64,000 bases of DNA from the IMG/VR virus record IMGVR_UViG_3300021185_003947; one strand, 5' to 3'. The stretch comes from a virus (Duplodnaviria > Caudoviricetes). The notes under the pieces were generated by a model. That model was given only the letters and a program-made list of their open reading frames with translations. It searched no databases and was not told the origin of the DNA. Positions 19,020 through 33,553 of this stretch are shown piece by piece; the stretch's first letter is position 1; each line of letters starts with the position of its first letter. The translations under genes were made by a program, and so were the position numbers.

Positions 19020-19237
19020 GCTTTTACGTCCCAATCTGCTTTTTCTTCAAGAGTCCATTGTACTGCTTGATAATAGTCTTTGTCTTCGTCGTTCATATGT
19101 GCAGCAAATAAACTAACTTTCGCCATTTGATTTAGTAGGTCAGTTTTACCTTCTATTAAATGATCCTGTCCAGGTGATTCCATAATAGCTTGAATAGCAT
19201 CCATATGAAGCTTAATTCTTTCTTGTATTTTACTCAC
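19016..19237 (-). CDS. Hypothetical protein (73 aa)
   Basis: ATGA-coupled to both gp55 and gp47. Confidence 0.65.
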   Translation of the reverse strand: MSKIQERIKLHMDAIQAIMESPGQDHLIEGKTDLLNQMAKVSLFAAHMNDEDKDYYQAVQWTLEEKADWDVKA

Positions 19238-19824
19238 TCTAAGAAATCCTGTAAGTCTGAGTCAACTGTACGAGCTCTTTTCTTTGGTGTCTTATTAGCT
19301 TTAGCAAAAGTTTTAAGCTCGGTATCATATTCTTTTACTTTACTAATTCTATCTTTTAAAGTATCAACAAAGTGCGTAGCTACCTGAGTCGATTCTTCAC
19401 TACTAGAAGAAGTGATAAACGCTTCAACTCCAGATTGCAACATATACTTTTCTTTAATCTCTTGCTGTTTCTTTTCCTTTGTAATTCTACGAAGAAAAGC
19501 AAACCAAATAATTTGAGTAAAATAAGCAAATGCGTTTGGTTTGCCTGAACGAGTTTTAGCATCAATATTATAGTTTTCAACAGCTTTTAGACAATTTTCA
19601 ACTGCATCCATAACCATTTCTTCACGATAAGTATATCGTATAAAATTAGACTTATGTGAAAGATTTTCAGCAATTTTTAAAAAAGATATAGCAATATCAT
19701 CAGGAACAATTGGTAAAACATCGTTATTTTCTTTAGCTTCAGAAACAGTTTTTACATAGTTGACTACTGATAATGAGAATTCAGCATTATTTACATAATG
19801 TACATTTTTAGTTTTTTTGGGCAT
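19234..19824 (-). CDS. 55: Late-transcription sigma factor
   Basis: HYVNN.EF, NF..YTYREEM..DA.ENC, NAFAYFTQI...AF.RRI.KEK. Confidence 0.95.
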   Translation of the reverse strand: MPKKTKNVHYVNNAEFSLSVVNYVKTVSEAKENNDVLPIVPDDIAISFLKIAENLSHKSNFIRYTYREEMVMDAVENCLKAVENYNIDAKTRSGKPNAFAYFTQIIWFAFLRRITKEKKQQEIKEKYMLQSGVEAFITSSSSEESTQVATHFVDTLKDRISKVKEYDTELKTFAKANKTPKKRARTVDSDLQDFLE

Positions 19825-19855
19825 AATGTTTATATCTCCACATAATATATTAGTA

Positions 19856-19884
19856 ATTATAAACTATTTTTTGTTGTTTGTAAA
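19856..19884 (-). promoter_or_regulatory. Early promoter of gp55
   Basis: TTTACA-N17-TATAAT. Confidence 0.78.
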
Positions 19885-19916
19885 TAAATTTATTTTTAAA
19901 ATATTGAAAATAACTG

Positions 19917-19945
19917 TTTACATACCGCAAAAAATGTGGTATAAT
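19917..19945 (+). promoter_or_regulatory. Plus-strand early-type promoter facing antisense to uvsW/uvsY
   Basis: TTTACA-N17-TATAAT with an extended -10 TG; no long plus-strand ORF for about 3 kb downstream. Confidence 0.6.
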
Positions 19946-19975
19946 AAAGAGTATTCTTTAAAGGGAAGGTAGTAT

Positions 19976-20404
19976 CTAATGAAGTTTATTCTTCGAAATC
20001 TTATTAAATGATAAGGTTACTACGTTTTTATTCTGATGATCAGATTCTCCGATAAGATCTAATTGAACTAAATCTTTTTCTCTAATTTCTTCATTTGCCA
20101 TATCTACTATTCTAGATAGAGCTAATTCATATTGTTTAAGTAATTCAGTATGCGGATTAGACAACGCCATACAATGATACGCATTAATAGTAATTACTTC
20201 ATCTTTATGTTCAACATATGTCATCCAAGGTTTAAGAACATATAAAGTTGTAGTGTATTGTTCTGTATCATTACTTTGAGCTCTAAACTTATCAATTAAT
20301 AAACAGTATCTTACAACTAAATCATCTTCAAGTTCTTCTAAAATTTCACAAATAATTTCGTCGCCGTTTACCATTTTGATTTGTTTAACGTTATCTACAA
20401 TCAT
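19976..20404 (-). CDS. Conserved T4-like hypothetical protein
   Basis: IKMVNGDEIIC ... LKPWM pattern; usual position between uvsW and gp55. Confidence 0.7.
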   Translation of the reverse strand: MIVDNVKQIKMVNGDEIICEILEELEDDLVVRYCLLIDKFRAQSNDTEQYTTTLYVLKPWMTYVEHKDEVITINAYHCMALSNPHTELLKQYELALSRIVDMANEEIREKDLVQLDLIGESDHQNKNVVTLSFNKISKNKLH

Positions 20405-20408
20405 TACT

Positions 20409-21911
20409 CTAAACCTTTATTTTATATATTTTGAAATTAAATTGCTCTCTTTTATATATTTTGATTCTTTCTTCGGAATGTAACAGCGTATAATTTTTCT
20501 TCGATTTATGTTGTATATCGTCTGATATATCATATAGTTTAGTAGTTACTCCATTGTCGCTTTTTCTGAGTCCTCGTCCAATGCTTTGGAGGACTTTGAT
20601 TTGTGATTTTGATGGGCTCGCAAAAATGATATTATGAAGATTACGTATGTTAATCCCTGTACTAAAAGTCCCGAGACTAGCCACGATAATCGCATCTTTT
20701 TGTTTCTCCGTTATTTTTCTTATAGCTTCTCTATCAGTAGCTTCAGTTGCACCACTAACAAAGAACACCTTTCTATTTATATCAGCTTTAGATTGTATTA
20801 ATTCATATAAAATTTTACCATGTTTTTCCACAAATTGAAATAATACTAATGAATTACCTTTTTGATCAAGAGCAAGATTTCTTATAAAATGATTTCGTTT
20901 TTCATTTCCAATTATAAAGTTTATTTCTTGTTGGTAAGTACTTCCACTAATTAATTGTCTTACATCATCAGCATGTTCTAATCTTAAAATAAAAATATCA
21001 AGAGCAGCTAATGTCTCTTTATCCTGTAATGCTTTAGTTGTAGTAACTTTCATTACCTTTCCAAACAATCCTTCAAGTACTAATTTATGTGTTTGTGTAC
21101 CATCAAGTGTTCCAGTTGTACCAAATCTATAAACTGTTGTTTTAGCTTTGTTCATAATATTAGATAACGATTTTGATTTGAATCCATGAACCTCATCACC
21201 AAATATAACGCCAAATTGACTAAACCATGTCATAGGTAATTTATATATTGATTGCCATGTACTAATAAAAACGTTTTCAGATATATTCATTTTAGCTTGA
21301 CCAGAAAAAATTGCATGACAATCATCTTTAGAAAAGCTATCATCATGAGATGAATAATCATCAAAGTCTGATAACATTTGTTGAACAAGCGAAGTTGTTG
21401 GTACGATTACTAAAACCTTTTCATCGTGATTGGCCATGTACCATCTCATCAAAACATAAATTATTAATGATTTTCCAGATCCAGTTGGTGATAGTAAAAT
21501 TGCTCGTTTTTTTCTAATGCTTTCACAAATAGCATTAAACTGATAATCTCTTACTTCAATTTGATTACCTTTACTATGAATATTAAGAGATTTAATAAAA
21601 TCCATTATATCTTTAACATCAATTTTATTAAATGATTCTGGAGGACCAAATGGACCGTCTTCATATTCAACAGCATAATCACGTTTTTCAGCAAACTCTT
21701 TTACATATGGCAATAAACCAACTGGCAATTCATAATTTGCGGGATTAAATAATCTTACCTTACCATCCCAGACTTTATTACGATATAAAGGCATGTACTT
21801 ATAACCTGGAACAAAAAACGAAAAGTACTCACTTAATTCCATTGCAATACCATTATCACAACCAATAAGTAACATAGCTTCATTTTTCTTTTGTAGTAAA
21901 ATTCTATCCAC
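20409..21911 (-). CDS. uvsW: SF2 RNA-DNA/DNA helicase UvsW
   Basis: RDYQ, SPTGSGKS, DEVH, GTTGT, FSTGINI, QSIGRGLR. Confidence 0.96.
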   Translation of the reverse strand: MDRILLQKKNEAMLLIGCDNGIAMELSEYFSFFVPGYKYMPLYRNKVWDGKVRLFNPANYELPVGLLPYVKEFAEKRDYAVEYEDGPFGPPESFNKIDVKDIMDFIKSLNIHSKGNQIEVRDYQFNAICESIRKKRAILLSPTGSGKSLIIYVLMRWYMANHDEKVLVIVPTTSLVQQMLSDFDDYSSHDDSFSKDDCHAIFSGQAKMNISENVFISTWQSIYKLPMTWFSQFGVIFGDEVHGFKSKSLSNIMNKAKTTVYRFGTTGTLDGTQTHKLVLEGLFGKVMKVTTTKALQDKETLAALDIFILRLEHADDVRQLISGSTYQQEINFIIGNEKRNHFIRNLALDQKGNSLVLFQFVEKHGKILYELIQSKADINRKVFFVSGATEATDREAIRKITEKQKDAIIVASLGTFSTGINIRNLHNIIFASPSKSQIKVLQSIGRGLRKSDNGVTTKLYDISDDIQHKSKKNYTLLHSEERIKIYKREQFNFKIYKIKV

Positions 21912-22350
21912 CGGCTTGAAACATCTTCCATTTTATAATATTGCTAATTGTTTGGTGCTTCCAACGTAATGTATCTACTATTTCTGTAAGTGTTTCCACT
22001 GTTGTTTTAAAATAAATTACTTTTTCTTCACTCTGTTGTATATCTATATCTGAATCATAATAGCGATTCATATCACCTTTCATGATTTTCATTCCACGAA
22101 ATGGATCAAATTCCCATCCTTTTTCGATAAGTTCATCTTCAGTCATCTTTCCATTATAATAAAGCCATTTTTCTTTAAGCAATATTTTTTGGTTAAGTTC
22201 TGTCTTTTTTAGCTTGAGTTTTGTAATAGATAACATTTCAAGATATTTTGCGTGCAACTTAGCTATTTCAATTGAACTTTTATCTAAATTGTTTTCATCT
22301 ATTTCGCAGTCGGTCTGCCATTCTTCAAGTATATTTTCAAGTGTTAACAA
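21904..22350 (-). CDS. uvsY: Recombination mediator UvsY
   Basis: LHAKYL, KW.YYNGK, Y.DSD.DI; adjacent to uvsW. Confidence 0.88.
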   Translation of the reverse strand: MLTLENILEEWQTDCEIDENNLDKSSIEIAKLHAKYLEMLSITKLKLKKTELNQKILLKEKWLYYNGKMTEDELIEKGWEFDPFRGMKIMKGDMNRYYDSDIDIQQSEEKVIYFKTTVETLTEIVDTLRWKHQTISNIIKWKMFQAGG

Positions 22351-22383: not shown

Positions 22384-22902
22384 TCAAGTTATAGTAAAAT
22401 ACTCATTTCTAAATGAGGCTTGAAATGTAACCTGTGATGGTTCACCTACTGTTGCAGCAAAATTTAATGAGCTTAGTGACGTTGGAACACAATCAATATA
22501 TTTTATTGTTTTAACAACTTTGTTCGAATTTGTTAATAGTAAAACAGTGATGTCTGCTTCATGTGTGTCTGTTGGAGATGGTATGTCACGATATAAAGGA
22601 TTATCACCAAGAATTCCTCTTCTATCTTCTGTTTGAGATTTTGCCCAATTATACATCTCGATGTAAGAATTCATATTTTCATCTACTATTACTTCAAAAC
22701 CTAATTCATCAATGGTTAAAGTGTCACCAGGCAAACCAACTGTAGAAATTCTTTTATACGCCATTGGAGCAGAAGTAACCGTAACACCAGGATGCTGAAA
22801 TGATTGAGCAAAAAATTCTAAATTGCCGAATTTTTTTCTATCAATTATTACTTTAAACTGCGTACTTTGTAGAAAATTAATGTTAGTTGTTAATTCTGCC
22901 AT
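22384..22902 (-). CDS. 3: Tail completion / tube terminator
   Basis: N.NFL..TQF, PG.T, PGD.L....L.....VDENM..YIEMYNW. Confidence 0.85.
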   Translation of the reverse strand: MAELTTNINFLQSTQFKVIIDRKKFGNLEFFAQSFQHPGVTVTSAPMAYKRISTVGLPGDTLTIDELGFEVIVDENMNSYIEMYNWAKSQTEDRRGILGDNPLYRDIPSPTDTHEADITVLLLTNSNKVVKTIKYIDCVPTSLSSLNFAATVGEPSQVTFQASFRNEYFTIT

Positions 22903-22924
22903 ATTAAACTCCTTTAACTACTAC

Positions 22925-22950
22925 TATTTATATTTTTCTACATATAAATA
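22925..22950. promoter_or_regulatory. Divergent pair of gp55-type late promoters
   Basis: TATAAATA on minus (22925-22932, toward gp3) and on plus (22943-22950, toward the fibre cassette). Confidence 0.75.
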
Positions 22951-22988
22951 CACATATAATATAAAATTTAAGTAATGGTATAATTTTA

Positions 22989-24638
22989 ATGGCTAGACGC
23001 ATAACTGTAAACTTAAGTGACACTATCAACACTTGGAGAATAAAGACAAATGCTCTCAGTCTTTTGATAGGTGATTTAGATGATTTATCTTCTGAATTTA
23101 CTGGTCATGATTCTGATTTTGTAGAAGCTATGAATTTTGCATTTGATAAAAAAGGCCTCTACTCAGCAGGTCTTGGAATAACCAAATCAACTAGTGGAGA
23201 TTCTTCAGGTGTATTTAATGTTTTAGCTGGAACTGGATTAACACAGGATTCAAATGGTTTAAGTATAGGCCCTGCTCCGGGAAATACAATTAAAGTTAGA
23301 GATGCAAATTCTGCCGGAGCTTTGTCTGATAAAGAAATAATTAATGAACAAATTTTAATTGGTAATGGCAATGGTTTTACATCTGCTGCTTTATCTCAAG
23401 ATGTTCTTATGACAAATGCTGGTGTTGTTACAATTCAACCTGATGTTGTTACGTATTCTAAAATGCAAAATGTTGTAGGCGCAAACAAAGTTCTTGGAAG
23501 TTCAACCGCAAATGGAATTATAACAGAGACTCAAGTGCAAACTGGAATGATTGCAGATGACGCTGTTACTACTGTTAAAATTCTAGATGATAATGTTACA
23601 TATGCTAAAATTCAAGATGCAGGCGCCAATTCAATTCTAGTTAGAGACGGAGCTGCAGCTGGAGATATATCAGCAAAAACTTTAACAGATACTCAAATCT
23701 TAATTAATAATGGAGCAGGATTTACTGCTGCAGCATTATCTGGTGATATTACAATGAATAATGCTGGAGTAGTAACAGTTGATCCGTCAGTAATCGGGAG
23801 TGTAGGCATTACTATCGGTGGAAACGCCCCAACTTCACCTGCAAATGGAACAGCCTGGTTTGACGATGTAACAGCCGGCGAAATGTTTGTATATAGCGAT
23901 AGCGCATCAAATTGGATACAGGTCACAGGGTCTATCACTTCTTTTTCAGCTATAAGTGGAACACCACCGGCGGCACCTTTAGATGGTACTTTTTGGTTTG
24001 ATGATGTAACAGACGGAGAACTGTTCATTTATAGTGATAGTGCATCAAATTGGATACAGGTTACTGGATCAATCACTTCTTTTTCAACAATAGGCGCATC
24101 GCCTCCAGCTGCACCTTTAAATGGTACTTTTTGGTTTGATGACAGCGCAACTGGAGAACTGTTTATTTATAGTAATGATGCATCAAATTGGATACAGGTT
24201 ACTGGCGTAGTCGCTAATGTAGCATTCTCCGATTTAACAAGTACTCCAACTACTTTAGCTGGCTACGGAATTACAGATGCACCGTCGGTATTAACTGACC
24301 TAAGTATTACTGATGGAACAAGCGGACAAGTACTAACAACAGACGGTAGTGCTGGATTTACATTTACATCTGCATCAAGTAGTACAACCTTTAATGCCAT
24401 TGGAACTTATTGTTTGGGGTTCTATACTGGTCTTGGCATTCACAATGGAGGTGCTACTTTCTCAGGAAGTTCAATTGCTACTGCTAATACTTATGCCGGT
24501 ACTAGTGGCTGGAGTGGATCTAGTACTTCTACTTTATCAGGAACTTGGCGCCTTATGGGAAACATAGGCTATTATAATCAAGGTACCACTGCAAGTAACG
24601 CAAACGTATCCGGCAGTTTATTTGTGAGGATTTCATAA
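22989..24638 (+). CDS. Modular tail-fibre/whisker-like virion protein (549 aa)
   Basis: N-terminal VNLSDTINTWRIKTN anchor-like motif, A.T..KI.D..VT repeats, three 42-aa WFDD repeats, VAFSDLTS linker, C-terminal SGTWR.M..LF.RIS domain. Confidence 0.75.
   Translation: MARRITVNLSDTINTWRIKTNALSLLIGDLDDLSSEFTGHDSDFVEAMNFAFDKKGLYSAGLGITKSTSGDSSGVFNVLAGTGLTQDSNGLSIGPAPGNTIKVRDANSAGALSDKEIINEQILIGNGNGFTSAALSQDVLMTNAGVVTIQPDVVTYSKMQNVVGANKVLGSSTANGIITETQVQTGMIADDAVTTVKILDDNVTYAKIQDAGANSILVRDGAAAGDISAKTLTDTQILINNGAGFTAAALSGDITMNNAGVVTVDPSVIGSVGITIGGNAPTSPANGTAWFDDVTAGEMFVYSDSASNWIQVTGSITSFSAISGTPPAAPLDGTFWFDDVTDGELFIYSDSASNWIQVTGSITSFSTIGASPPAAPLNGTFWFDDSATGELFIYSNDASNWIQVTGVVANVAFSDLTSTPTTLAGYGITDAPSVLTDLSITDGTSGQVLTTDGSAGFTFTSASSSTTFNAIGTYCLGFYTGLGIHNGGATFSGSSIATANTYAGTSGWSGSSTSTLSGTWRLMGNIGYYNQGTTASNANVSGSLFVRIS
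23826..24207 (+). repeat. Three tandem 126-bp coding repeats (P..P..GT.WFDD...GE.F.YS..ASNWIQVTG)
   Basis: Visible in both DNA and protein; ends approximate. Confidence 0.8.
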
Positions 24639-24744
24639 TGACTATTGGAGTAGTTCTGAAGCAAATAGCGGTTCAAAGGGGTATACTGGTGGTACAGAAA
24701 CCCGGCCAAGAAACATTGCATTTCTAGCTTGTATTAAATATTAA
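24628..24744 (+). pseudogene. Orphan 3' remnant of a tail-collar gene (...GGTETRPRNIAFLACIKY*)
   Basis: Start-less frame after TGA 24625-27. Its last ~50 nt, including the next RBS taaggaga, nearly match 25800-25851. Confidence 0.75.
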
Positions 24745-24756
24745 GGAGACATTGGT

Positions 24757-25152
24757 ATGAACGTATATCAGACAGATTTAAATGGTGTTTATGTAGGCAC
24801 TACAACAGCAGATCAAGACCCTTTAGATGACACTAACTGGCTTATTCCAGCGGGTTGCGTACAGACTGCACCACCAACAATAACTGACAGCCAACTTGCT
24901 AAGTGGGATGGTTCAGGATGGGTTGTAGAGAATATACCCATTGTAGAACCTGATCCAGAACCTGAGTCTATTGCACCAGAAGTTTTAGCCCGTGGAAAGC
25001 GTGACGGACTATTGATAACTTCAGATTGGACACAGGTTGATGACTCTCCTGTAGATAAGTCTGCTTGGGCAACATACAGACAACTTTTACGGGACGTACC
25101 AACTCAAGCAGGATTTCCAAACACAATAACATGGCCCACTTCACCCGAATAG
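24757..25152 (+). CDS. Tail-fibre assembly chaperone
   Basis: Tfa-like N-terminus (YQ.D..G.YVG...LIPAG...PP) plus R..RD.LL..SDW...W..YRQ.LRD.P.Q.GFP..I.WP. Confidence 0.85.
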   Translation: MNVYQTDLNGVYVGTTTADQDPLDDTNWLIPAGCVQTAPPTITDSQLAKWDGSGWVVENIPIVEPDPEPESIAPEVLARGKRDGLLITSDWTQVDDSPVDKSAWATYRQLLRDVPTQAGFPNTITWPTSPE

Positions 25153-25178
25153 AGTATGCATAATTAGGAGAAAAAGGA

Positions 25179-25847
25179 ATGCCATATCCATTAAACCCGA
25201 CAACAGGTGATGAATATATTTTAGGATCAAAAACTTGGAAATACAATGGTTCGCGCTGGGTAAAATTAGGACTTTCACAAACTGTATCTGCAGATGTAGC
25301 ATTCTCAGATTTAACAAGTACTCCAACTACATTATCAGGCTATGGAATTACTGATGCTGCAAGTTCATCAAGTGCATCAGTTCCTGCCGGTACATTAATT
25401 TATCATGCAGCTAATACAGCCCCTACAGGCTTTATTAAGGCTAATGGTGCTGCTATATCAAGAACAACTTATGCTGATTTGTTTGCAGCAATAGGCACTA
25501 CGTATGGCGCTGGTGATGGATCTTCTACTTTTAATGTCCCCGACCTTCGTGGTGAGTTTATGCGTGGATGGGATGACGCGCGCGGAATTGATACCAGTCG
25601 TTCTTTTGGTTCTGCACAGGCTGATGAATTTAAGCTACACGGTCACCCTTCAAGGCGGGGCACTGAATTTAATGTTACCAACGATACTGGCGGCGGCGGT
25701 ATACTCATGGACAGTAATGGAGGTCAAGCAAACAGGTCAGCGTTTACAGGAACACCATCAAATACTGATGGGCAACATATTGGCGGCTCTGGAGGTTCAG
25801 AAACACGTCCAAGAAACATTGCATTTCTAGCTTGTATTAAATATTAA
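25179..25847 (+). CDS. Short tail-fibre protein with one tail-collar domain
   Basis: P.GT.I..A....P.GF..ANGA..SRT.YA.LF..IGT.YG.GDG..TFN.PDLRGEF.RGWD ... ETRPRN.A...CIKY. Confidence 0.85.
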   Translation: MPYPLNPTTGDEYILGSKTWKYNGSRWVKLGLSQTVSADVAFSDLTSTPTTLSGYGITDAASSSSASVPAGTLIYHAANTAPTGFIKANGAAISRTTYADLFAAIGTTYGAGDGSSTFNVPDLRGEFMRGWDDARGIDTSRSFGSAQADEFKLHGHPSRRGTEFNVTNDTGGGGILMDSNGGQANRSAFTGTPSNTDGQHIGGSGGSETRPRNIAFLACIKY

Positions 25848-25859
25848 GGAGAAACAATA

Positions 25860-26276
25860 ATGTCTGTTACAATTACACAAGTGCGTAATGCACAATCACT
25901 TAACGTAGAGAATACTGCATATGATGTAGAAATTAATCATCCCGATTACGGTTGGATACCTTACACTTTGGACCCTAGCGACACTGATATGACTATCGAT
26001 AACAATGCTGTAATGTCTTTGATAAGCACAAACTTTACATCTTATGTAGCACCTACTCAGGCAGAGTTAGATGCAGAACTTGAAGCAAATCTAAGAAGTC
26101 AACGTGACCAGAAGTTAGTAGAAGAATTGGACCCTATAGTAACTAACCCTTTACGTTGGGCAGAACTTACATCTGATAAGCAAACAGAGTGGACACAATA
26201 TAGAACTGACTTATTAAATGTACCACAACAGTCAGGGTTTCCTACAAATGTAACTTGGCCAGATAAACCTGTATAA
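25860..26276 (+). CDS. Tail-fibre assembly chaperone
   Basis: LR.QRD..L ... W..YR..L..VPQQ.GFP..V.WP C-terminus. Confidence 0.8.
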   Translation: MSVTITQVRNAQSLNVENTAYDVEINHPDYGWIPYTLDPSDTDMTIDNNAVMSLISTNFTSYVAPTQAELDAELEANLRSQRDQKLVEELDPIVTNPLRWAELTSDKQTEWTQYRTDLLNVPQQSGFPTNVTWPDKPV

Positions 26277-26279
26277 ATA
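26272..26279 (+). promoter_or_regulatory. Late promoter inside the fibre cassette
   Basis: TATAAATA about 20 nt before the ATG at 26300. Confidence 0.65.
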
Positions 26280-26299
26280 TATAATCAGGAGAAACAGAA

Positions 26300-28072
26300 A
26301 TGGCATATCCAACAAATCCAACGACCGGTGACACCTATGTTTTAGGATCAAAAACTTGGACCTACAATGGCACGAACTGGGTAAATCAAGCAACGTTTGC
26401 ATCAGGTAGTAGTGCTAGTGTAGCATTCTCCGATTTAACAAGTACTCCAACTACATTAGCTGGCTACGGAATTACAGATGGTGGCAGTGGTAGCGGTGGC
26501 GGAGCAATGGAATTCATTGCTTCATCAGGGGCTTTAAGTAATGTGGCTGATGTTAGCTTTACACAGTTTGATGCAACTAAGTATGATCATTATGTCTTTG
26601 CGCTTCAAAATGTCATACCTGATACAAATGGTGCAAACTTATTTGCACGCTTAAGGCCAACTGGAAGTTCGACTTATTCTGCCACTAGTGGAAATTATGA
26701 AACGGCTGGTAGTGCTAGAACAGCGTTTGTATTAGCTGATAGTGTGGGGACTAATACACATGGCTATGGTGTAGGTGGTTTATTTAATTTATATGCGCTA
26801 CATTTAACTGATGAATACACGTTCGCAGATACCGTTAATTTGATATATACACGAAATAATGGAGTAACGACACAAACAATATCGTATGCTGGGGCTGGTA
26901 ATATTTACAAGCAAGCAACAGCGGTCGATGCGATTCGATTCTTTTTTTCGTCAGGGAACATCTTCTCGGGCGAAATAGTAATGTACGGAATTAGGAATTC
27001 AGCATCGGGTGGAGGAGGAGCCGGAGGCGGTAGTGTAGCATTCTCCGATTTAACAAGTACTCCAACTACCTTAGCCGGCTACGGAATTACAGATGGTGCA
27101 AGTGAATCAGCTGCAGTTGGTACAGTAATTTATCATTCAGCTAATACAGCCCCTACAGGCTTTATTAAGGCTAACGGCGCTGCTATATCAAGAACAACTT
27201 ACTCTGATTTGTTTACGGCAATTGGTACAACTTTTGGTAGTGGCGATGGATCTTCTACTTTTAATGTCCCCGACCTTCGCGGCGAGTTTCCTAGAGGTTG
27301 GGATGACGGCCGTGGAATTGATGCCAGCCGTTCTTTTGGTTCTGCACAGGCTGACCAAATGGAATCCCACAATCACAGCGTACCTTCTGCCGCTAACTTT
27401 GGTGGTAATCATGACCGAATAGTAGTTGGTACCGGAGTGTTTTCAAGCAACAATGCGTCTACAGATTTCACCGGTGGAACGTCTAATTCTTCTGAAAACC
27501 GCCCAAGAAACATAGCCCTACTTGCTTGTATTAAATATCAATCAACCTCTTCTGGTGGTGGTGGCGGTTCTCTCAGCAACATAGTTGAAGATACCACACC
27601 ACAGCTTGGTGGCAATCTGGACGCCCAAACATTTGATATCACTACCACAGGAAAGATACTATACGCGAATATGTATGCTACAGAAGGTGATTTGCCAAGT
27701 GCAACCACCTATCACGGTATGTTTGCACATGTTCACGGTACAGGAGCAGGTTACTTTGCTCATGGCGGTAATTGGATTAAACTAGCAAATCATGCAGACC
27801 TGAGTAGTGCATCAGGTAGTACAACAGCTGGAGGTGTTGGTACTTACTCACTACTTGGTAAAGCTGATGGTAGCACTACATCTCTTGGCACAGATGTATC
27901 GGGCAGTTCACTTCGGTATAGTAGCACTTATTCTTACAGTCCAAGTTACTATGGCATGTCAGGGTCTGCGCCTAGCGGCACATGGCGCTGCATGTCTGTC
28001 GGCGGGGCTTATAATTTATCAACAACTGCTGCGAATTCAACAACAGTTACTATATTTCTAAGGATTTCATAA
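26300..28072 (+). CDS. Modular tail-fibre protein (590 aa, one collar domain)
   Basis: YPTNPTTGD N-terminus, two VAFSDLTS linkers, collar domain, YHGMFAHVH module, SGTWR.M..FLRIS C-terminus. Confidence 0.82.
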   Translation: MAYPTNPTTGDTYVLGSKTWTYNGTNWVNQATFASGSSASVAFSDLTSTPTTLAGYGITDGGSGSGGGAMEFIASSGALSNVADVSFTQFDATKYDHYVFALQNVIPDTNGANLFARLRPTGSSTYSATSGNYETAGSARTAFVLADSVGTNTHGYGVGGLFNLYALHLTDEYTFADTVNLIYTRNNGVTTQTISYAGAGNIYKQATAVDAIRFFFSSGNIFSGEIVMYGIRNSASGGGGAGGGSVAFSDLTSTPTTLAGYGITDGASESAAVGTVIYHSANTAPTGFIKANGAAISRTTYSDLFTAIGTTFGSGDGSSTFNVPDLRGEFPRGWDDGRGIDASRSFGSAQADQMESHNHSVPSAANFGGNHDRIVVGTGVFSSNNASTDFTGGTSNSSENRPRNIALLACIKYQSTSSGGGGGSLSNIVEDTTPQLGGNLDAQTFDITTTGKILYANMYATEGDLPSATTYHGMFAHVHGTGAGYFAHGGNWIKLANHADLSSASGSTTAGGVGTYSLLGKADGSTTSLGTDVSGSSLRYSSTYSYSPSYYGMSGSAPSGTWRCMSVGGAYNLSTTAANSTTVTIFLRIS

Positions 28073-30384
28073 TGTCATATCCAACAAATCCAACTACGGG
28101 CGATACGTATATTTTAAGTGGAAAAACTTGGAAATATGATGGTGCGAACTGGTTAAAATTAGGACTTTCACAAGCTGTATCTACTAATGTAGCATTTTCA
28201 GATTTAACAAGTACTCCAACTACTTTAGCTGGCTATGGAATTACAGATGGTGCAACAGGAACAGGTGAATCAGTTCCAGTTGGTACGGTAATTTATCATT
28301 CAGCCAACACACCCCCTACGAATTTCATAAAAGCCAATGGTGATGCTGTATCGAGGACAACTTACTCTGATTTGTTTACAGTTATTGGAACTACGTATGG
28401 CGCTGGTGATGGGTCCACTACATTTAACGTGCCTGACCTTCGTGGTGAGTTTATGCGTGGCTGGGATGATAGTCGTGGAATTGATAACGGTCGTTCCTTT
28501 GGCTCGGCTCAAGCGGATGAGCTAAAAGCACACACTCACAACTACACAGACGGGACAAACGGAACAAACCCAACAGGCACCGGGGCCGGAACAAATAATT
28601 CGTTTCCTGTGGTGAATGGACGAGCAACCAGCGAGACAGGCGGTACAGAAACCCGTCCAAGAAACATAGCCCTACTTGCTTGCATTAAATATCAATCAAC
28701 GTCTGGATCAGGTAGTAGTGCTGGTGTAGCATTCTCCGATTTAACAAGTACTCCAACTACCTTAGCCGGCTACGGAATTACAGATGGTGGCGGTGGTGGT
28801 TCATATGCAAATAGTGATGTTGATACACACTTGAACCAAGGTACTGCGACATCTAATCAAGTGTTAAGTTGGAATGGTACAGATTATGCATGGGTATCAA
28901 ATAGCATTGCAAATTCATCAGTTTCTGCCGGTACAGTAATTTATCATGCAGCTAATACTCCCCCTACAAATTTCATAAAAGCTAATGGTGCTGCTATATC
29001 GAGGACAACTTACTCTGATTTGTTTGCAGCAATTGGTACAACTTTTGGTAGTGGTGACGGCTCTTCCACGTTCAATGTTCCTGACCTTCGTGGTGAGTTT
29101 CCCAGAGGTTGGGATGACGGCCGTGGAATTGATACTAGTCGAGCTTTTGGTTCTGCACAGGCTGATGAGTTAAAAAGTCACACACACACTGTTTACAACG
29201 GTACAGCGGTTGATGACAACCGTGCCTACTCAGCGGCGGATTCTACACAACGATTATATTCAGGCTCTCCGAATAGGGAAACGGCAGCTACAGGTGGTAC
29301 AGAAACCCGCCCACGCAACATAGCCCTACTTGCTTGCATTAAATATCAATCAACCTCTTCTGGTGGTGGTGCTGGTGTAGCATTCTCAGATTTAACAAGT
29401 ACTCCAACTACATTATCAGGCTATGGAATTACAGGTGATATTGATGCCGGAGGCAACAAAGTATTATTTGCAAACATGTATGCTACAGAAGGTGATTTGC
29501 CAAGCGCGACCACCTATCATGGTATGTTTGCTCATGTTCATTCTACAGGCGCAGGCTACTTTGCTCACGCTGGTAACTGGGTTAAACTAGCAAATCATAC
29601 AGACCTAAGTAGTATATTAGCTTCTGATTACCCAGTAGAACCTAATTGGAATTCACACACAGAAGAAATTACTACATCAAGCACTTGGACTAAACCAGCC
29701 GCTTTAAGTGATGACGCTTGGGTCATTGCTTATGGTGTTGGTGGTGGAGGTGCCGGTGGACATACGTTTGCGAATAAGACTGGTTTTTCATCTATCCAAA
29801 AGGCGAGGGCTGGGGCAGGTGGTGGTGCTATGATCATTGCTTTGAAGGCTAGCACACTTAACGGCGCTTCATTTACAATTGGCAGTGGTGGTATTGGTTC
29901 TACTTCCAGTCAAGGACCGGCCGGTGGCAATACTACTATTACAACCATAGGAACTGGTAGTACAATATATACAGCTGCTGGCGGCGAAGGCGGAATAGCG
30001 GCTAACTCAGGTGCTTCTACTGGCGGCGGTGGACAGATAATTTGGTGGACAAGGCCAGGTGAAAATGATATATCCGCTAGTTGGGATGTAACTGGTGGTG
30101 GTTCAGGAGCTGGCGCAGATACAAGCTTTACTCCTGCTACTGAACAATTTGCAGGTGGTGCATCACAAGGCATGACAGGAAATGCCGGCGGTGGTGCCTT
30201 TGGTGTCTCAACTTACGCAGGTGATGGTGTAGCTGCATCTACTACAAATGTAGATGGTGTAAACGGTGGATTTCCAGGTGGTGGCGGCGGTGCTACACAC
30301 GTTAATTTCGGCGGTAGTACTACAACAACCGTAGTGACTGGTGATGGTGCAAACGGTTCAATTAGACTATACTATACAATATAA
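28072..30384 (+). CDS. Modular tail-fibre protein (770 aa, two collar domains, Gly-rich C-terminus)
   Basis: YPTNPTTGD start, two collar domains, three linkers, YHGMFAHVH module, GGGGAGG glycine-rich tail. Confidence 0.82.
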   Translation: MSYPTNPTTGDTYILSGKTWKYDGANWLKLGLSQAVSTNVAFSDLTSTPTTLAGYGITDGATGTGESVPVGTVIYHSANTPPTNFIKANGDAVSRTTYSDLFTVIGTTYGAGDGSTTFNVPDLRGEFMRGWDDSRGIDNGRSFGSAQADELKAHTHNYTDGTNGTNPTGTGAGTNNSFPVVNGRATSETGGTETRPRNIALLACIKYQSTSGSGSSAGVAFSDLTSTPTTLAGYGITDGGGGGSYANSDVDTHLNQGTATSNQVLSWNGTDYAWVSNSIANSSVSAGTVIYHAANTPPTNFIKANGAAISRTTYSDLFAAIGTTFGSGDGSSTFNVPDLRGEFPRGWDDGRGIDTSRAFGSAQADELKSHTHTVYNGTAVDDNRAYSAADSTQRLYSGSPNRETAATGGTETRPRNIALLACIKYQSTSSGGGAGVAFSDLTSTPTTLSGYGITGDIDAGGNKVLFANMYATEGDLPSATTYHGMFAHVHSTGAGYFAHAGNWVKLANHTDLSSILASDYPVEPNWNSHTEEITTSSTWTKPAALSDDAWVIAYGVGGGGAGGHTFANKTGFSSIQKARAGAGGGAMIIALKASTLNGASFTIGSGGIGSTSSQGPAGGNTTITTIGTGSTIYTAAGGEGGIAANSGASTGGGGQIIWWTRPGENDISASWDVTGGGSGAGADTSFTPATEQFAGGASQGMTGNAGGGAFGVSTYAGDGVAASTTNVDGVNGGFPGGGGGATHVNFGGSTTTTVVTGDGANGSIRLYYTI

Positions 30385-30405
30385 TATACTAGTAAGGATA
30401 AACTA

Positions 30406-30681
30406 ATGTCTAAAATATTTTATAACAAAGAAACAGGTCTTGGTGCAGTATTTGATAATTCTGCAAACATAAGTGATTGGCCTGACTTTCAGGAAAGTGC
30501 TGTGGTAGCAAACGCAATACAAGTACGAGCGGATCGGGATGCATTACTAGTGGCAGCTGACTACATGGCTTTAGCTGACCGCATAACAGATGAGTGGCGC
30601 ACTTATCGACAAGCATTGAGAGACTTGCCTGCCCAAGAAGGGTTTCCCACAAATGTAACTTGGCCAGATAAACCTGAATAA
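30406..30681 (+). CDS. Tail-fibre assembly chaperone
   Basis: VRADRD.LL...D ... WR.YRQALRDLP.Q.GFP..V.WP. Confidence 0.85.
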   Translation: MSKIFYNKETGLGAVFDNSANISDWPDFQESAVVANAIQVRADRDALLVAADYMALADRITDEWRTYRQALRDLPAQEGFPTNVTWPDKPE

Positions 30682-30706
30682 TTAATTATGTAAATAAAGG
30701 TGATCA

Positions 30707-31402
30707 ATGACACATAATGATAAAGTATTTTATTCTCAAATACAAAATATTTCTGTTGCAAATACTGTTCTTGGAAGTTCAACTGCAAATGGAATTATAA
30801 CAGAGACTCAAGTTTTTAATGAAATGATTGCAGATGATGCAATAACAGCAGTCAAAATTCCAGATGATGAAATCACATATGCTAAAATTCAAGATATGGA
30901 TGCTAATTCAGTTTTAGTTAGAGATGACGCTGCAGATGGTGATGCATCATCTAAAATGCTATTAGATACTCAAATTTTAATTAATAACGGCGCAGGGTTT
31001 ACTGCAGCTTCTTTGTCTGGTGACGTTACAATGACTAATACAGGAGTAGTAACTGTATTAAAATTAAATAAAGCAATAATTAATATCGATAATAATAAAA
31101 AAAATATTGCTATTAATAAAAAAAATATTGCTACTAATACAGATAACATCAATAGCAATACTAAAGCAATTGAAAATATTAATCTTCCATCAGGAAGTAT
31201 TATGACTTTCTCAGTTGGAATAGAACCCAAAGGTTGGCTAGAATGCGATGGTTCAGGTATTGATAGAAAATTATATTCAAATCTATTTTCTGCAATTGAT
31301 ATTAAATATGGAATAGGTGATGGCACTAACTCCTTCAATGTTCCAGATTTTAGAGGTACTTATATAAATGATATTGAAGTAATGTACTGCATTAAAATAT
31401 AA
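30707..31402 (+). CDS. Chimeric short fibre: repeat module of the 549-aa gene, coiled segment and minimal collar domain
   Basis: VLGSSTANGIITETQV is shared at DNA level with ~23490-23540. The collar lacks the variable loop (VPDFRG-TYINDIEVMYCIKI). Confidence 0.7.
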   Translation: MTHNDKVFYSQIQNISVANTVLGSSTANGIITETQVFNEMIADDAITAVKIPDDEITYAKIQDMDANSVLVRDDAADGDASSKMLLDTQILINNGAGFTAASLSGDVTMTNTGVVTVLKLNKAIINIDNNKKNIAINKKNIATNTDNINSNTKAIENINLPSGSIMTFSVGIEPKGWLECDGSGIDRKLYSNLFSAIDIKYGIGDGTNSFNVPDFRGTYINDIEVMYCIKI

Positions 31403-31412
31403 GGAATTAATT

Positions 31413-31826
31413 ATGACGTTAATATATAATTATGATAAAAAAACTAAAGTGTATACCAATACAACTACTGCAAAACCATGCCCTTTAGGAGGTAATGATC
31501 GCGTTCCAGCCCACGCAACTACAATTGCTATTCCAGATCTATCAGATAAGGAATGTGCGGTTTGGGATGGATCTGCTTGGACTATAGGACCTGATTTTAG
31601 AGGAACCGTATATTGGATAAATCATTATGAATCTAAAACTATAACAGAAGCTAATATTGACATTCCTTTTGACGCATACCTTACTCAGCCATTTGCACCA
31701 CCAGAAGAAGAATCGACTAAAGAAAAACTTGCTGCTTATGAATTGGCAATAGAAAAATCAATAGATGCAATAGATGATAGAAACGAACGAATTCGTTTAC
31801 ATTTACAATCTATATCTAATTCGTAG
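31413..31826 (+). CDS. Tfa-like tail-fibre assembly protein
   Basis: IYNYD..T..Y.......PA.AT..A.P......WDG..W....D.RG.VY. Confidence 0.75.
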   Translation: MTLIYNYDKKTKVYTNTTTAKPCPLGGNDRVPAHATTIAIPDLSDKECAVWDGSAWTIGPDFRGTVYWINHYESKTITEANIDIPFDAYLTQPFAPPEEESTKEKLAAYELAIEKSIDAIDDRNERIRLHLQSISNS

Positions 31827-32045
31827 TTAATTAAATGCTACTTTAACAACATTACCATTTGGATCAAACATTGTACTAACTCTATTGACTTTACAATTAG
31901 TACTAGTTCTACATTTCCACCATTCTTCAGCTTCTTCTTGAGTTTTAACTGTTATTGCAGTCCACTCAAGAGGACCTTCAGTTCTAGGTTTTCCTGTAGT
32001 TTCATCGAATTGCCTAACGCTGAATTGTCCTCTGAGTGTCCACAT
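31827..32045 (-). CDS. Hypothetical early protein (72 aa)
   Basis: AAGGA RBS and its own early promoter. Confidence 0.6.
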   Translation of the reverse strand: MWTLRGQFSVRQFDETTGKPRTEGPLEWTAITVKTQEEAEEWWKCRTSTNCKVNRVSTMFDPNGNVVKVAFN

Positions 32046-32206: not shown

Positions 32207-33553
32207 TTATACGTCGAGGATATTATCTACGCGGAAGATTCTGTAGTACTGGTTAGTCTTTGCATTAGCAAGACCGTTTGCTGGAGCGTTTCCAACAAAT
32301 GGGTTTGATACCATACCATAACGAGTTTTGAACCCGATACGTGGCTGGAAGTCATTCTCACCTACGGCACGGACCATAGTCAGCGGTACGTATGGGCAAT
32401 AGAAGAGACCTGCGTCATAAGCATTGGTACCTTTGTATCCAACGTTAATATAGTCTACAGTTGCATACGGATCGATGTATACTTTGGTACGACCATTAAG
32501 AACACCAGCAAAAGTATTACCAGTATCGTCGACTGTCAGGCTATCTTTCAGAGCTGGAGCATAGTCCAACATTCCAGTAGCAGACAAGCAAGAAGCAACA
32601 TCAGAAGAAGTAATGATGAAATTACCACGACCTCTACGAGTCAGTTTTGCAATTGCATTTGCTTCACGTTCGATCTGAACCATCAGACCTTTGAAACGCT
32701 CTACACTCCAACGACCATCAGCATCATTCTTCAGATCAAAGACACCGTCAACTGCTGTTTGAGATGTAGAAGCACCAGTTCTAGCTTGGCTATTAATAGT
32801 ACGGATTACTTCCCGGTTGATTTCAGCAAGAATTTCAGTTGAAAGAATGTTAGCCAGTTCGCTTTCAGCGTCCAGACCGTGGATTGCTTTCAGATCCTGT
32901 GCGAGTTCAAGCGAATATTCTGCTTTCAATGCACGTGTTTTTGCTGATACAGTTGCTTTCTCAATGGTGAAACCCATTTCATTGAAAGCAGAGTTAGGAC
33001 TAGTACCAGTAGTACCAAGACCTTCACCGTTTGCTGTATCCATACCACCTCTTGGATGAACAGCTGAACGCTCATCATCGATAGTACCTGAAGTGTTAGC
33101 ATCTGTAAGACCACTAAGACCAGAACCATCAGTGGGCATAGCTGTACCAGATGAATCACCAGAGAACTTGGTATTTGCTTCGTTAAACAGTGCTTCGTCA
33201 TTAGTAGTTACACCACCATTGAAACGTGATTTCATCGCAAAGATCAGTCCAGTTGGACCAGTCATTGGCTGAACACCACAGACGTCATATGCCATCATGT
33301 TGGGCATTGCACGACGTACGAGCGAAATAAGGATTGGATCCCACTTATCGATCGAACCAGTATTTGCACCAGCAGGTGCATCCTCTGTCAAGTAACCTTG
33401 CTGAGCAGAACGGGCTTCTTGAAGAGCTTTTTCTTGGTTTTCAAGAACAACAGCCGTTACCGACTTTCTATATTGATCTTGAATTGTACCGGCTGATTCT
33501 TCGTTCAGAACCGGTGCCCACTTTTCAGTAAGCGATTTGTATGCGTTAGACAT
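32207..33553 (-). CDS. 23: Major capsid protein
   Basis: KWAPVL, LENQE, DPILISLVRR, VQPMTGPTGLIFAM, LKAEYSLELAQDLKAIHGLDA, FQPRIGFKTRYG. Confidence 0.98.
   Translation of the reverse strand: MSNAYKSLTEKWAPVLNEESAGTIQDQYRKSVTAVVLENQEKALQEARSAQQGYLTEDAPAGANTGSIDKWDPILISLVRRAMPNMMAYDVCGVQPMTGPTGLIFAMKSRFNGGVTTNDEALFNEANTKFSGDSSGTAMPTDGSGLSGLTDANTSGTIDDERSAVHPRGGMDTANGEGLGTTGTSPNSAFNEMGFTIEKATVSAKTRALKAEYSLELAQDLKAIHGLDAESELANILSTEILAEINREVIRTINSQARTGASTSQTAVDGVFDLKNDADGRWSVERFKGLMVQIEREANAIAKLTRRGRGNFIITSSDVASCLSATGMLDYAPALKDSLTVDDTGNTFAGVLNGRTKVYIDPYATVDYINVGYKGTNAYDAGLFYCPYVPLTMVRAVGENDFQPRIGFKTRYGMVSNPFVGNAPANGLANAKTNQYYRIFRVDNILDV

What the first reader, a model, noticed from the sequence alone, without database searches (positions are those of the whole stretch)
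22943..31826. Inverted cassette of mix-and-match tail fibres joined by near-identical DNA cassettes
Seen: five fibre genes and four chaperones on the opposite strand, inserted between gp23 and gp3, with their own late promoters. They are mosaics of a few modules: YPTNPTTGD start (x3), 60-bp VAFSDLTS linker (x7, nearly identical including third codon positions), collar domain (x5), YHGMFAHVH (x2), SGTWR..FxRIS end (x2) and a shared chaperone 3' end. Inference: the linkers serve as homologous-recombination junctions (the phage has UvsW/UvsY/gp46/47), giving a recombinase-free system for combinatorial receptor-binding diversity.
Basis: partly seen in the sequence, partly recalled or inferred. Interest (0 to 1): 0.72.

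Follow-up and report, generated by a model that had tools for sequence, protein, structure and literature searches.

The report
Mix-and-match tail-fibre island, marine phage
A widespread marine T4-like phage carries an extra 8.9-kb block of five tail-fibre genes built from interchangeable parts joined by an almost identical 60-base connector. Related phages carry the same parts in other combinations joined at that connector, so this is an unusually clean natural example of a known way in which phages change what they bind.

Summary
Window 22934-31826 is a plus-strand island of five fibre genes and four Tfa-type chaperones between gp3 and orf72/gp23 of a marine T4-like phage. A 60-nt in-frame joint encoding VAFSDLTSTPTTLAGYGITD occurs seven times. 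At amino-acid-invariant positions its codons are identical in 86% of copy pairs, against 56-64% in the neighbouring modules.

Related metagenome contigs carry no island, a smaller one, or a differently ordered one. In 69 joint occurrences, 8 kinds of left flank meet 16 kinds of right flank in 23 combinations, many seen in several assemblies. High-identity alignments end at joints more often than chance (8 of 29 positions, expected 6%, p=2e-4). A phage only about 70% identical in its backbone shares modules at 94-98% identity at a different genome position.

So the joints do mark recombination borders. Three qualifications apply:
- The pattern is population-level mosaic evolution, the known mode for T-even gp37/gp38 and P2/Mu/lambda fibres, not a switching device.
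- Gene borders and the conserved collar core are junctions too.
- The joint peptide is one unit of a widespread, unannotated fibre repeat.

The role of homologous recombination is inferred, and assembly chimeras are not fully excluded. I class it as a new variant of a known kind.

The parts
22934..31826 (+). Accessory tail-fibre island, absent from close relatives L004 and L010-L012, whose sequence joins window 22933 to 31827
22943..22950 (+). T4-type late-promoter motif TATAAATA upstream of F1; a divergent copy for gp3 lies at 22925-22932 on the minus strand
22989..24638 (+). F1, 549 aa: unique N-terminal part, DUF5907-like repeats, three 138-nt tandem repeats (23812-24225), joint, SGTWR..FVRIS tip
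24219..24278 (+). Joint 1 (VAFSDLTSTPTTLAGYGITD). The 96-97% identity of L001 and L002 to the window ends here, at 24280
24640..24744 (+). Scar in the F1-C1 spacer: its second frame reads the last 34 codons of a collar-type fibre (..GGTETRPRNIAFLACIKY, then a stop)
   Evidence: repeat D5
24757..25152 (+). C1 chaperone (PF16778). In relatives it follows collar-end fibres in 7 of 7 cases
25179..25847 (+). F2, 222 aa: 39-aa anchor, joint, gp12-like collar/HxH head
25296..25355 (+). Joint 2
25860..26276 (+). C2 chaperone (PF16778). In relatives it follows SGTWR-end fibres in 10 of 10 direct cases
26272..26279 (+). TATAAATA motif upstream of F3
26300..28072 (+). F3, 590 aa: anchor, joint, 185-aa middle module, joint, collar head, YHGMFAHVH module, SGTWR..FLRIS tip
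26420..26479 (+). Joint 3. Alignments of L007, L034, L035 and L056 end at 26477-26483
27035..27094 (+). Joint 4. Its 60 nt are identical to joint 6
28072..30384 (+). F4, 770 aa: anchor, joint, collar head A, joint, 45-aa spacer, collar head B, joint, YHGMFAHVH module, glycine-rich domain (weak match to PF21722)
28189..28248 (+). Joint 5
28541..28713 (+). Variable loop of collar head A. It is replaced by another loop in strains 98-99% identical to the window (L033, L038, L040), and that loop also occurs in the F1 of L001
28726..28785 (+). Joint 6. It is present in the window and L038 and absent, as a 72-nt in-frame gap, in L033, L040 and L034 and in part of runs X14 and X20
29377..29436 (+). 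Joint 7 (ends ..GYGITG)
30406..30681 (+). C4 chaperone (PF16778); it follows glycine-rich-end fibres in relatives
30707..31402 (+). F5, 231 aa: repeats shared with F1 (79% nt), a short collar domain, no joint. It is conserved at the right end of the island in relatives
31413..31826 (+). C5, a tail-fibre assembly protein of another type (phrog_105)
22384..22902 (-). Left flank: gp3-like protein. The match is to phrog_45; the name gp3 rests on its size and its position next to UvsY
31827..32045 (-). Right flank: conserved 72-aa ORF, also present in relatives that lack the island
32207..33553 (-). gp23 major head protein
16246..22350 (-). Recombination genes of the phage: gp46 16246-17961, gp47 17958-19034, UvsW 20409-21911, UvsY 21904-22350

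Best explanation
The island is an accessory host-recognition locus of a marine T4-like phage.

Construction of the fibres. Each fibre gene has three kinds of part:
- An anchor: either the long F1 N-terminus or a 39-40-aa YP(T/L)NPTTGD module.
- A 20-codon joint.
- One or more distal modules: a T4 gp12-like collar/HxH head with a variable loop, an SGTWR tip, a YHG module, or a glycine-rich domain. Each tip type is served by its own Tfa-type chaperone.

How the parts are exchanged. Every joint has the same reading phase and nearly the same DNA, so recombination between two joints always gives an in-frame swap, insertion or deletion of whole modules. The two joints may lie in co-infecting relatives or within one genome. 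Over evolutionary time this has produced a shared pool of modules, found in many combinations in related phages and even in a distantly related one. A second, nested level works the same way inside the collar head, where the variable loop lies between the conserved core and the conserved ETRPRNIA..ACIKY end.

Shown: the repeats, their common phase, their synonymous-site conservation, the alternative combinations and where identity breaks, and the transfer between divergent backbones.

Inferred: that the phage's own homologous-recombination enzymes make the exchanges, that all five fibres are mounted on the virion, and that the variation changes host range.
For: 1. Seven joints, with 58 invariant alignment columns that lie almost entirely in the 60-nt core, between flanks that are only 60-82% identical.
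2. Identical-codon fraction at amino-acid-invariant sites: 0.86 in the joint, 0.635 in the collar, 0.556 in the anchor. In 45 non-identical occurrences the core codons GAT TTA ACA AGT ACT CCA ACT are 89-98% fixed, while each codon of the equally conserved NPTTGD motif is split between two to four synonymous codons, the commonest at 47-74%.
3. 69 joint occurrences in the window plus 28 contigs give 8 left types, 16 right types and 23 combinations. All four combinations of L3/L4 with R4/R10 exist. Several combinations recur in 4-5 contigs.
4. Ends of alignments at 88% identity or more fall at joints in 8 of 29 positions, where 6% is expected (p=2.3e-4).
5. Differences bounded by joints: the F3 homologue of L007 lacks the middle module plus one joint; the F4 homologues of L003 and L007 go from anchor and joint straight to the YHG module. 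L058 puts the F1 tip (97% nt) on the short F3 anchor.
6. L056 has a backbone 68-73% identical in nt but modules 94-98% identical, placed upstream of gp21, with one identity break at 26483.
7. Strains 98-99% identical to the window differ by one loop swap and by the presence or absence of joint 6. Both forms co-occur in runs X14 and X20.
8. Scars: a collar-end remnant in the F1-C1 spacer, and in the window alone the adjacency of chaperones C1 and C2 to their tip types is exchanged.
9. GC3 of the island genes (0.13-0.28) lies within the backbone range of 0.17-0.32.
10. Recombination within or near conserved motifs that swaps adhesin segments is established for T-even phages (PMC3157838, read).
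Against: - Nearly all comparative evidence comes from short-read metagenome assemblies, and a 60-nt repeat is exactly where assemblers break or mis-join. Many contigs end inside the island.
- The k=31 contigs that could be laid on the window break at every joint, so they cannot show the order of modules.
- Some contigs may be the same sample filed in two collections, which would inflate the recurrence counts.
- Many loci were fetched with a nucleotide pattern lying inside the joint. This biases the codon counts; the loci fetched through gp3 show the same codons.
- Copies are related by descent, so the statistics are not from independent samples.
- The joint peptide is a widespread structural repeat, so protein-level constraint contributes to its conservation.
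- No recombinant has been observed arising.
- No UvsX gene was looked for in the window.
Confidence: 0.75

Rival explanations
1. Assembly artefact. The different module orders in relatives, or in the window itself, are chimeric joins that short-read assemblers made through the 60-107-nt repeats, and the real genomes all share one order.
For: Contigs L001-L003, L005-L009 and others end inside the island. Logan k=31 contigs stop at each joint. Any false join through a joint would stay in frame, so intact ORFs prove nothing.
Against: - The window's order through five or six joints is reproduced by L038, and parts of it by L040 and L033. These come from other samples and differ from the window at 28541-28780.
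- Alternative junctions recur in 2-5 contigs.
- An anchor-joint-YHG junction lies in a Global Ocean Sampling contig (L057). From my own knowledge that data set is made of Sanger reads, which are much longer than the joint.
- Many right-hand modules (R8-R16) do not exist in the window at all.
- Loop swaps, island-free relatives and junctions at gene borders do not involve the repeat.
Confidence: 0.08
2. Structural repeat only. The joint is conserved because it is a required unit of the trimeric fibre shaft. Mosaics arise by any recombination, and only in-frame products survive. The DNA identity is a by-product of recent duplication and codon preference, not something that promotes exchange.
For: The same peptide repeat (consensus F..LTGKPTTLAGYGITDA) occurs in 576 representative proteins, up to 16 times per protein, some of which carry Peptidase_S74 or Mtd_N domains. 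All fixed codons end in A or T, as this genome prefers (GC3 about 0.2). Junctions also occur at places that have no joint.
Against: - Synonymous conservation in the joint is well above that of equally conserved neighbouring residues.
- For threonine, position-specific ACA and ACT codons are fixed although both end in A or T.
- Identity peaks sharply at the joint, while the flanks of the same duplicated units are 66-82% identical.
- Joint 6 can be present or absent in otherwise identical fibres, so at that site it is not structurally required.
Confidence: 0.12
3. Programmed high-frequency switching. The island would be a dedicated diversity generator acting within single infections, comparable to shufflons, Mu G / P1 C inversion, or diversity-generating retroelements.
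For: The density of joints (seven in 5.2 kb) and the co-occurrence of minority structural variants with the dominant form in single samples (joint 24640>25867 at depth 4.8 against about 30; 28714>28787 at depth 8-13).
Against: - None of the nine island ORFs is a recombinase or reverse transcriptase.
- There are no boundary or internal inverted repeats of note, and all joints are direct repeats.
- The island has the same orientation in every relative that has it next to gp3.
- The unique modules sit at the same depth as the backbone in four runs, and the module set recurs in 14 studies over eight years.
- The co-occurring variants also differ by point substitutions, as separate lineages do.
Confidence: 0.05

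Closest known systems
T-even distal tail-fibre/adhesin locus (gp37/gp38: His boxes, glycine-rich motifs flanking hypervariable segments; Tetart 1996/1998, Trojet 2011, PMC3157838)
   Same: Conserved short motifs flank variable recognition segments. Exchanges between related T4-type phages occur within or near the conserved motifs and give chimeric adhesins. No site-specific recombinase is involved. The collar-head loop between the conserved core and the ETRPRNIA end is the closest parallel.
   Different: Here the conserved element is one 60-nt joint reused at the borders of whole domains in several genes of one island, seven times in this genome. It joins unrelated folds and allows several heads to be strung in one polypeptide. 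The locus is an accessory island between gp3 and gp23, not the gp34-38 region. No crosses have been done.
Mosaic side tail fibres of P2, Mu, P1, lambda and relatives (Haggard-Ljungquist 1992; Sandmeier 1994; cited from my own knowledge)
   Same: Fibre genes are assembled from segments shared among unrelated phages, and the tip moves together with its Tfa-type chaperone. Here C1 goes with the collar end, C2 with the SGTWR end and C4 with the glycine-rich end.
   Different: Those are temperate enterobacterial phages with one fibre gene per locus, and in Mu and P1 an invertase switches the tips. Here there are several fibres, no invertase, and a dedicated repeated joint.
T4 gp12 short tail fibre receptor-binding domain (PDB 1OCY; also 9CUY, 8KEC)
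   Same: The collar modules match PF07484 (E 1e-19 to 1e-42) and align to 1OCY, 9CUY and 8KEC. They include the HxH motif and the conserved C-terminal strand.
   Different: In gp12 the head is terminal and single. In F3 and F4 complete heads are internal and followed by further modules, and F4 has two.
Metaviromic islands / host-recognition clusters of marine phages (Mizuno 2014, PMC3909814; pelagimyophage HRC, PMC7029224)
   Same: A variable region of an otherwise conserved marine phage genome that encodes fibres, with co-existing variants in one sample.
   Different: The pelagimyophage cluster described lies between VrlC and gp14, whereas this island lies between gp3 and gp23. Those papers do not describe a repeated in-frame joint.
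Branched multi-receptor-binding-protein phages (CBA120, G7C, PhiK64-1; cited from my own knowledge)
   Same: Several receptor-binding proteins with a conserved N-terminal anchor and exchangeable distal parts in one virion.
   Different: Those are tailspike depolymerases with defined docking domains. Docking of F2-F4 has not been studied.

Membership tests
Phage tail collar-domain fibres (PF07484, T4 gp12-like head) | Significant match to the Collar domain profile | tested here: met
   F2 1e-21, F3 3.6e-21, F4 2.5e-42 (two stretches), F5 7.9e-19; all are above the 24-bit cut-off
Phage tail collar-domain fibres (PF07484, T4 gp12-like head) | Sequence relation to solved short/long tail-fibre heads, including the HxH metal motif and the conserved C-terminal strand | tested here: met
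   8KEC 3.5e-8, 9CUY 6.4e-4, 1OCY 1.9e-3. The alignment reaches ..ENRPKNIA.. against ETRPRNIA. Metal binding itself was not tested
Phage tail collar-domain fibres (PF07484, T4 gp12-like head) | Homotrimeric fibre fold | not tested
   The single-sequence monomer model was unusable (pLDDT 35). No trimer job was run
Tfa-type tail-fibre assembly chaperones (PF16778 / phrog_105) | Profile match and a position directly downstream of a fibre gene | tested here: met
   C1 2.7e-22, C2 7e-12, C4 1.9e-21; C5 matches phrog_105 at 8.5e-12. Chaperone type tracks tip type in relatives
Recombination-driven mosaic fibre loci (T-even gp37/38 type) | Conserved DNA motifs flanking variable segments | tested here: met
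Recombination-driven mosaic fibre loci (T-even gp37/38 type) | Relatives differ by exchanges whose borders fall in or at the conserved motifs | tested here: met
   (p=2.3e-4); the caveat about assembly applies
Recombination-driven mosaic fibre loci (T-even gp37/38 type) | Recombinants obtained in crosses, with changed host range | not testable with these tools
   The phage is uncultured and its host is unknown
Invertible / shufflon-type fibre switches (Mu Gin, P1 Cin, R64 shufflon) | Site-specific recombinase gene and inverted crossover sites | tested here: not met
   No recombinase among the island ORFs. Only short chance-level inverted repeats are present, and all joints are direct
Diversity-generating retroelements | Reverse transcriptase with a template/variable repeat pair | tested here: not met
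   No reverse-transcriptase match in the island ORFs, and the repeat copies differ at all base types. The rest of the window was not scanned for a reverse transcriptase

The most novel reading that the evidence does not exclude
The 60-nt joint is maintained at the DNA level as a dedicated, portable recombination adaptor. Its invariant 23-nt core would be kept because modules flanked by intact cores spread. This natural in-frame 'standard connector' would let T4-like phages that differ by about 30% in their backbone draw on one common pool of receptor-binding modules, at rates that matter ecologically. The core, which contains AGTACT and a near-palindrome, might also be a target for a nuclease that starts the exchange.
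Probability: 0.2. Interest if true: 0.75.

Novelty: new variant of a known kind. Interest (0 to 1): 0.55.

Why it matters
Tail-fibre mosaicism is textbook, but the junctions are rarely this explicit. Here one short connector, in one reading phase, marks most domain borders of a multi-gene island. The same parts can be followed through dozens of natural combinations in an abundant, uncultured marine phage group.

This gives three things:
- A concrete, countable model for how fast host-recognition modules move in the ocean. Long reads across one 9-kb locus would give haplotype frequencies directly.
- An unannotated fibre repeat (GYGITD-type, no Pfam family) that deserves a family definition and a structure.
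- A natural design rule for joining fibre domains in frame, including stringing several gp12-like heads in one chain.

It does not reveal a new mechanism of recombination.

Tried and rejected
- The window's own assembly is not held, and the nearest record G001 (14.9 kb) does not cover the island.
- Megablast of the island against 50,697 phage records found no match. tblastn of anchor plus joint also found none. tblastn of F4 matched only through the collar domains.
- No bacterial or archaeal genome holds the 32-nt joint core, so there is no host clue.
- Logan contigs of four runs were laid on 21900-33600. They break at every joint because k=31 is shorter than the joint, so they neither support nor refute any module order. 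Several listed 'joints' with sides of 21-31 nt lie wholly inside joint variants and were disregarded.
- The 90-kb contig of island-free relative L010 has no F2 homologue, but it is only 53% complete, so nothing was concluded from it.
- The single-sequence AlphaFold model of F2 was unusable (pLDDT 35), so no fold search was run.
- Pfam at E up to 10 gave nothing credible for the anchor, the joint, the 46-aa repeats, the F3 middle module, the YHG module or the SGTWR tip. The protein-atlas look-ups gave only unnamed viral clusters.
- The repeat was not found in PDB by sequence.
- Full-text searches for GYGITD and TLAGYGI found no paper.
- Foreign origin of the island, suggested by its higher G+C (0.42-0.44 against about 0.32), was rejected. 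GC3 matches the backbone, so the excess comes from Gly/Ala/Thr/Ser-rich proteins.
- A small hairpin inside the joint, flagged by the terminator scan, was rejected as a conserved structure because one stem position is a freely varying third codon base.

Full report
CONTEXT. The window is part of a T4-like phage genome.
- On the minus strand lie the prohead protease, scaffold and major head protein (34732-35382, 33565-34716, 32207-33553). Also on that strand are a gp3-like protein (22384-22902; it matches phrog_45, and I name it gp3 from its size and its position beside UvsY), UvsY, UvsW, and further on gp46/gp47 and the DNA polymerase.
- The best isolate match of the head protein is only 65% (Phage C48C1). 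Pelagibacter, Methylophilales and Synechococcus myophages come next at about 58-59%.
- The island's 31-letter words are 85-97% present in 20 marine or seawater runs from 14 studies dated 2017-2025. The phage is therefore marine and widespread. Its host is unknown.

THE OBSERVATION. Between gp3 and a conserved 72-aa ORF next to gp23, nine genes run on the opposite strand: F1, C1, F2, C2, F3, F4, C4, F5 and C5.
- Pfam finds the tail Collar domain in F2, F3, F4 (twice) and F5, and the tail assembly chaperone family in C1, C2 and C4. C5 matches another tail-fibre assembly family.
- The repeat finder returns nine direct-repeat families.
- The sharpest repeat is a 60-nt stretch encoding VAFSDLTSTPTTLAGYGITD at 24219, 25296, 26420, 27035, 28189, 28726 and 29377. 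The aligned stretch has 58 invariant columns, nearly all within the 60-nt core, and identity drops abruptly on both sides.
- Exact T4-type late-promoter motifs precede only F1 and F3, and the motif is not enriched in the window.
- The island's higher G+C comes from amino-acid content. GC3 of its genes (0.13-0.28) lies within the backbone range of 0.17-0.32.

IS THE DNA CONSERVATION MORE THAN PROTEIN CONSTRAINT?
- At columns where the amino acid is invariant and degenerate, pairs of joint copies use the same codon 86% of the time, and 13 of 18 columns are fixed in all seven copies. The figures are 63.5% for the four collar copies (29 of 78 columns fixed) and 55.6% for the three anchors.
- Across 45 non-identical occurrences from the window and relatives, the core codons GAT TTA ACA AGT ACT CCA ACT and GGA ATT are 89-100% fixed. 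The equally conserved NPTTGD motif of the anchor has each codon split between two to four synonymous forms, the commonest at 47-74%.
- Part of that data set was fetched with a nucleotide pattern inside the joint, which biases it. The loci fetched through gp3 show the same codons.

RELATIVES.
- A gp3-based search gave 28 loci, and joint-pattern scans gave more. No bacterial genome has the joint core.
- Mapping to the window shows that L004 (about 89% nt identity in the flanks) and L010-L012 (about 84%) join window 22933 directly to 31827. More distant relatives also have gp23, orf72 and gp3 adjacent. The island is therefore an insertion confined to one clade.
- Module maps show islands of different content:
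  - L048 (gp3 99%): F1 ending in a collar head, a second collar fibre, C1, anchor-joint-SGTWR-like tip, C2, anchor-joint-glycine-rich domain, C4, F5, C5.
  - L064 and L003: F1 as in the window, then C2, then a collar fibre, then C1, then long other fibres.
  - L032: a compact island with three fibres.
- The window's own order is reproduced through five or six joints by L038, and in part by L040 and L033. These are 98-99% identical to the window but come from other samples.

JUNCTIONS.
- I clustered the 120 nt to the left and to the right of every joint occurrence at 85% identity. This covered 69 occurrences in the window plus 28 contigs.
- Eight left types meet sixteen right types in 23 combinations. 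All four combinations of left types L3 (F1 shaft) and L4 (F2 anchor) with right types R4 (collar head) and R10 (SGTWR-like tip) exist. Combinations recur in up to five contigs.
- The ends of alignments at 88% identity or more fall at a joint in 8 of 29 distinct positions, where 6% is expected (p=2.3e-4). All seven joints are hit.
- The remaining positions cluster at gene borders (24640, 25178, 25852-57, 28071, 30371) and at other places inside modules.
- Specific cases:
  - The 96-97% identity of L001 and L002 to the window ends at 24280, the last bases of joint 1, after which a collar head replaces the SGTWR tip.
  - The F3 homologue of L007 lacks exactly the middle module plus one joint.
  - The F4 homologues of L003 and L007 go from anchor and joint directly to the YHG module.
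  - L058 carries the F1 tip (97% nt) on the short F3 anchor.
  - L001 and L002 share their F2-type anchor and part company inside the joint.

RECENT EVENTS AND SCARS.
- Among strains 98-99% identical, three genotypes exist for collar head A: the window (loop 1, joint 6 present), L038 (loop 2, joint 6 present), and L033/L040 (loop 2, joint 6 absent as a 72-nt in-frame gap). L034, a more diverged relative, also has loop 2 without joint 6.
- Loop 2 is the loop of L001's F1 head. Loops therefore move between collar scaffolds, flanked by the conserved core and the ETRPRNIA..ACIKY end.
- Both forms co-occur in runs X14 and X20 (joints 28540>28639 and 28714>28787). An L003-type F1-C2 adjacency is a minority form in X14.
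- The F1-C1 spacer still reads the last 34 codons of a collar fibre in another frame.
- In relatives C1 always follows a collar end (7 of 7) and C2 follows an SGTWR end (10 of 10 direct cases). In the window alone the two are exchanged. Tips normally travel with their chaperone, and the window has undergone at least two further exchanges.

TRANSFER BETWEEN LINEAGES. L056 is a 75.7-kb contig whose gp21-gp23 and gp3-UvsW genes are 68-73% identical in nt to the window. It has no island between gp23 and gp3. It carries C2, anchor and joint at 96.4%, the YHG module at 94.1% and the F1 tip at 97.7%, upstream of gp21 on the same strand as the head genes. One identity break lies at 26483, the end of joint 3.

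WHAT THE JOINT IS AS A PROTEIN.
- An exhaustive profile-free search with anchor plus joint found 576 representative proteins. Most match only the joint part, and up to 16 times per protein.
- Examples show tandem units of about 27 residues, often separated by HxH. Some of these proteins carry an endosialidase-chaperone domain or an Mtd N-terminal domain.
- There is no Pfam family, no detectable solved structure and no paper with the motif string.
- The joint is therefore one unit of a widespread, unannotated fibre-shaft repeat. This explains why it tolerates any neighbour, and it means that part of its conservation is structural.

WHAT IT IS NOT. There is no recombinase or reverse transcriptase among the island genes, no meaningful inverted repeats, and all joints are direct. 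The island has the same orientation in every relative that has it beside gp3. The unique modules sit at backbone depth in four runs. A programmed switch is therefore unlikely.

LIMITS.
- The comparative evidence rests on short-read assemblies, which tend to break or mis-join at such repeats. The contigs that could be laid (k=31) stop at every joint.
- Four things argue against artefact as the main explanation: junctions that recur across assemblies; modules that do not exist in the window; variation that does not involve the repeat; and a Global Ocean Sampling contig (L057), which from my own knowledge is built from Sanger reads, carrying an anchor-joint-YHG junction.
- Individual contigs may still be chimeric.
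- Homologous recombination by the phage's own enzymes, mounting of all five fibres on the virion, and an effect on host range are all inferences.

COMPARISON AND VERDICT.
- The principle is established: recombination within or near conserved motifs reshuffles adhesin segments. It holds for T-even gp37/gp38 (PMC3157838) and, from my own knowledge, for the P2/Mu/lambda side fibres. Variable fibre islands are known in marine phages (PMC3909814). The pelagimyophage host-recognition cluster lies elsewhere, between VrlC and gp14 (PMC7029224).
- What is new here is the form:
  - one reused in-frame connector at whole-domain borders in several genes;
  - several gp12-like heads strung in one chain;
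  - a nested loop-swap level;
  - an accessory island at gp3|gp23;
  - a module pool shared by phages whose backbones differ by about 30%.
- I rate it a new variant of a known kind and of moderate interest.

Noticed in passing
L056:1-13100 (contig Ga0209634_1000089): A T4-like phage with a backbone only 68-73% nt identical to the window carries fibre modules 94-98% identical to the window's. They lie upstream of gp21 on the same strand as the head genes, and nothing lies between gp23 and gp3. This points to a second insertion site for the same module pool.
   Followed up: partly
P0002, P0005, P0008, P0049: A widespread repeat of about 27 residues (F..LTGKPTTLAGYGITDA, often spaced by HxH), with up to 16 copies per protein. 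It has no Pfam family and no detectable solved structure, so it is a candidate for a new fibre-repeat family definition.
   Followed up: partly
window 24640-24744: The spacer between F1 and C1 encodes, in another frame, the last 34 residues and the stop codon of a collar-type fibre. It looks like a remnant left by a tip replacement.
   Followed up: yes
window 24757-26276 compared with L003, L048, L064: In relatives, chaperone C1 follows collar-end fibres and C2 follows SGTWR-end fibres. In the window the two adjacencies are exchanged, and F3 (SGTWR end) has no chaperone next to it. This implies that the chaperones act in trans.
   Followed up: partly
window 31827-32206: A conserved 72-aa minus-strand ORF lies between gp23 and the island and is present even in relatives without the island. 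Two strong terminator-like hairpins (32144-32165, 32179-32202) lie just downstream of gp23.
   Followed up: no
window 24246-24262 and the same place in the other joints: Each joint contains a near-palindrome (CCAACTA, three bases, TAGCTGG) next to AGTACT. The terminator scan flagged it on the minus strand. One stem position is a freely varying third codon base, so it is probably not a conserved structure.
   Followed up: partly
window 25179-25295, 26300-26419, 28072-28188 compared with 23812-24225: By eye, the 39-40-aa anchors of F2-F4 (P.NPTTGD.Y..G..W.Y.G..W) resemble single units of the three 46-aa tandem repeats in the F1 shaft (P.NGT.WFDD.T.GE.F.YSD.ASNW). The anchors may be the same kind of unit, or may dock on it.
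   Followed up: no
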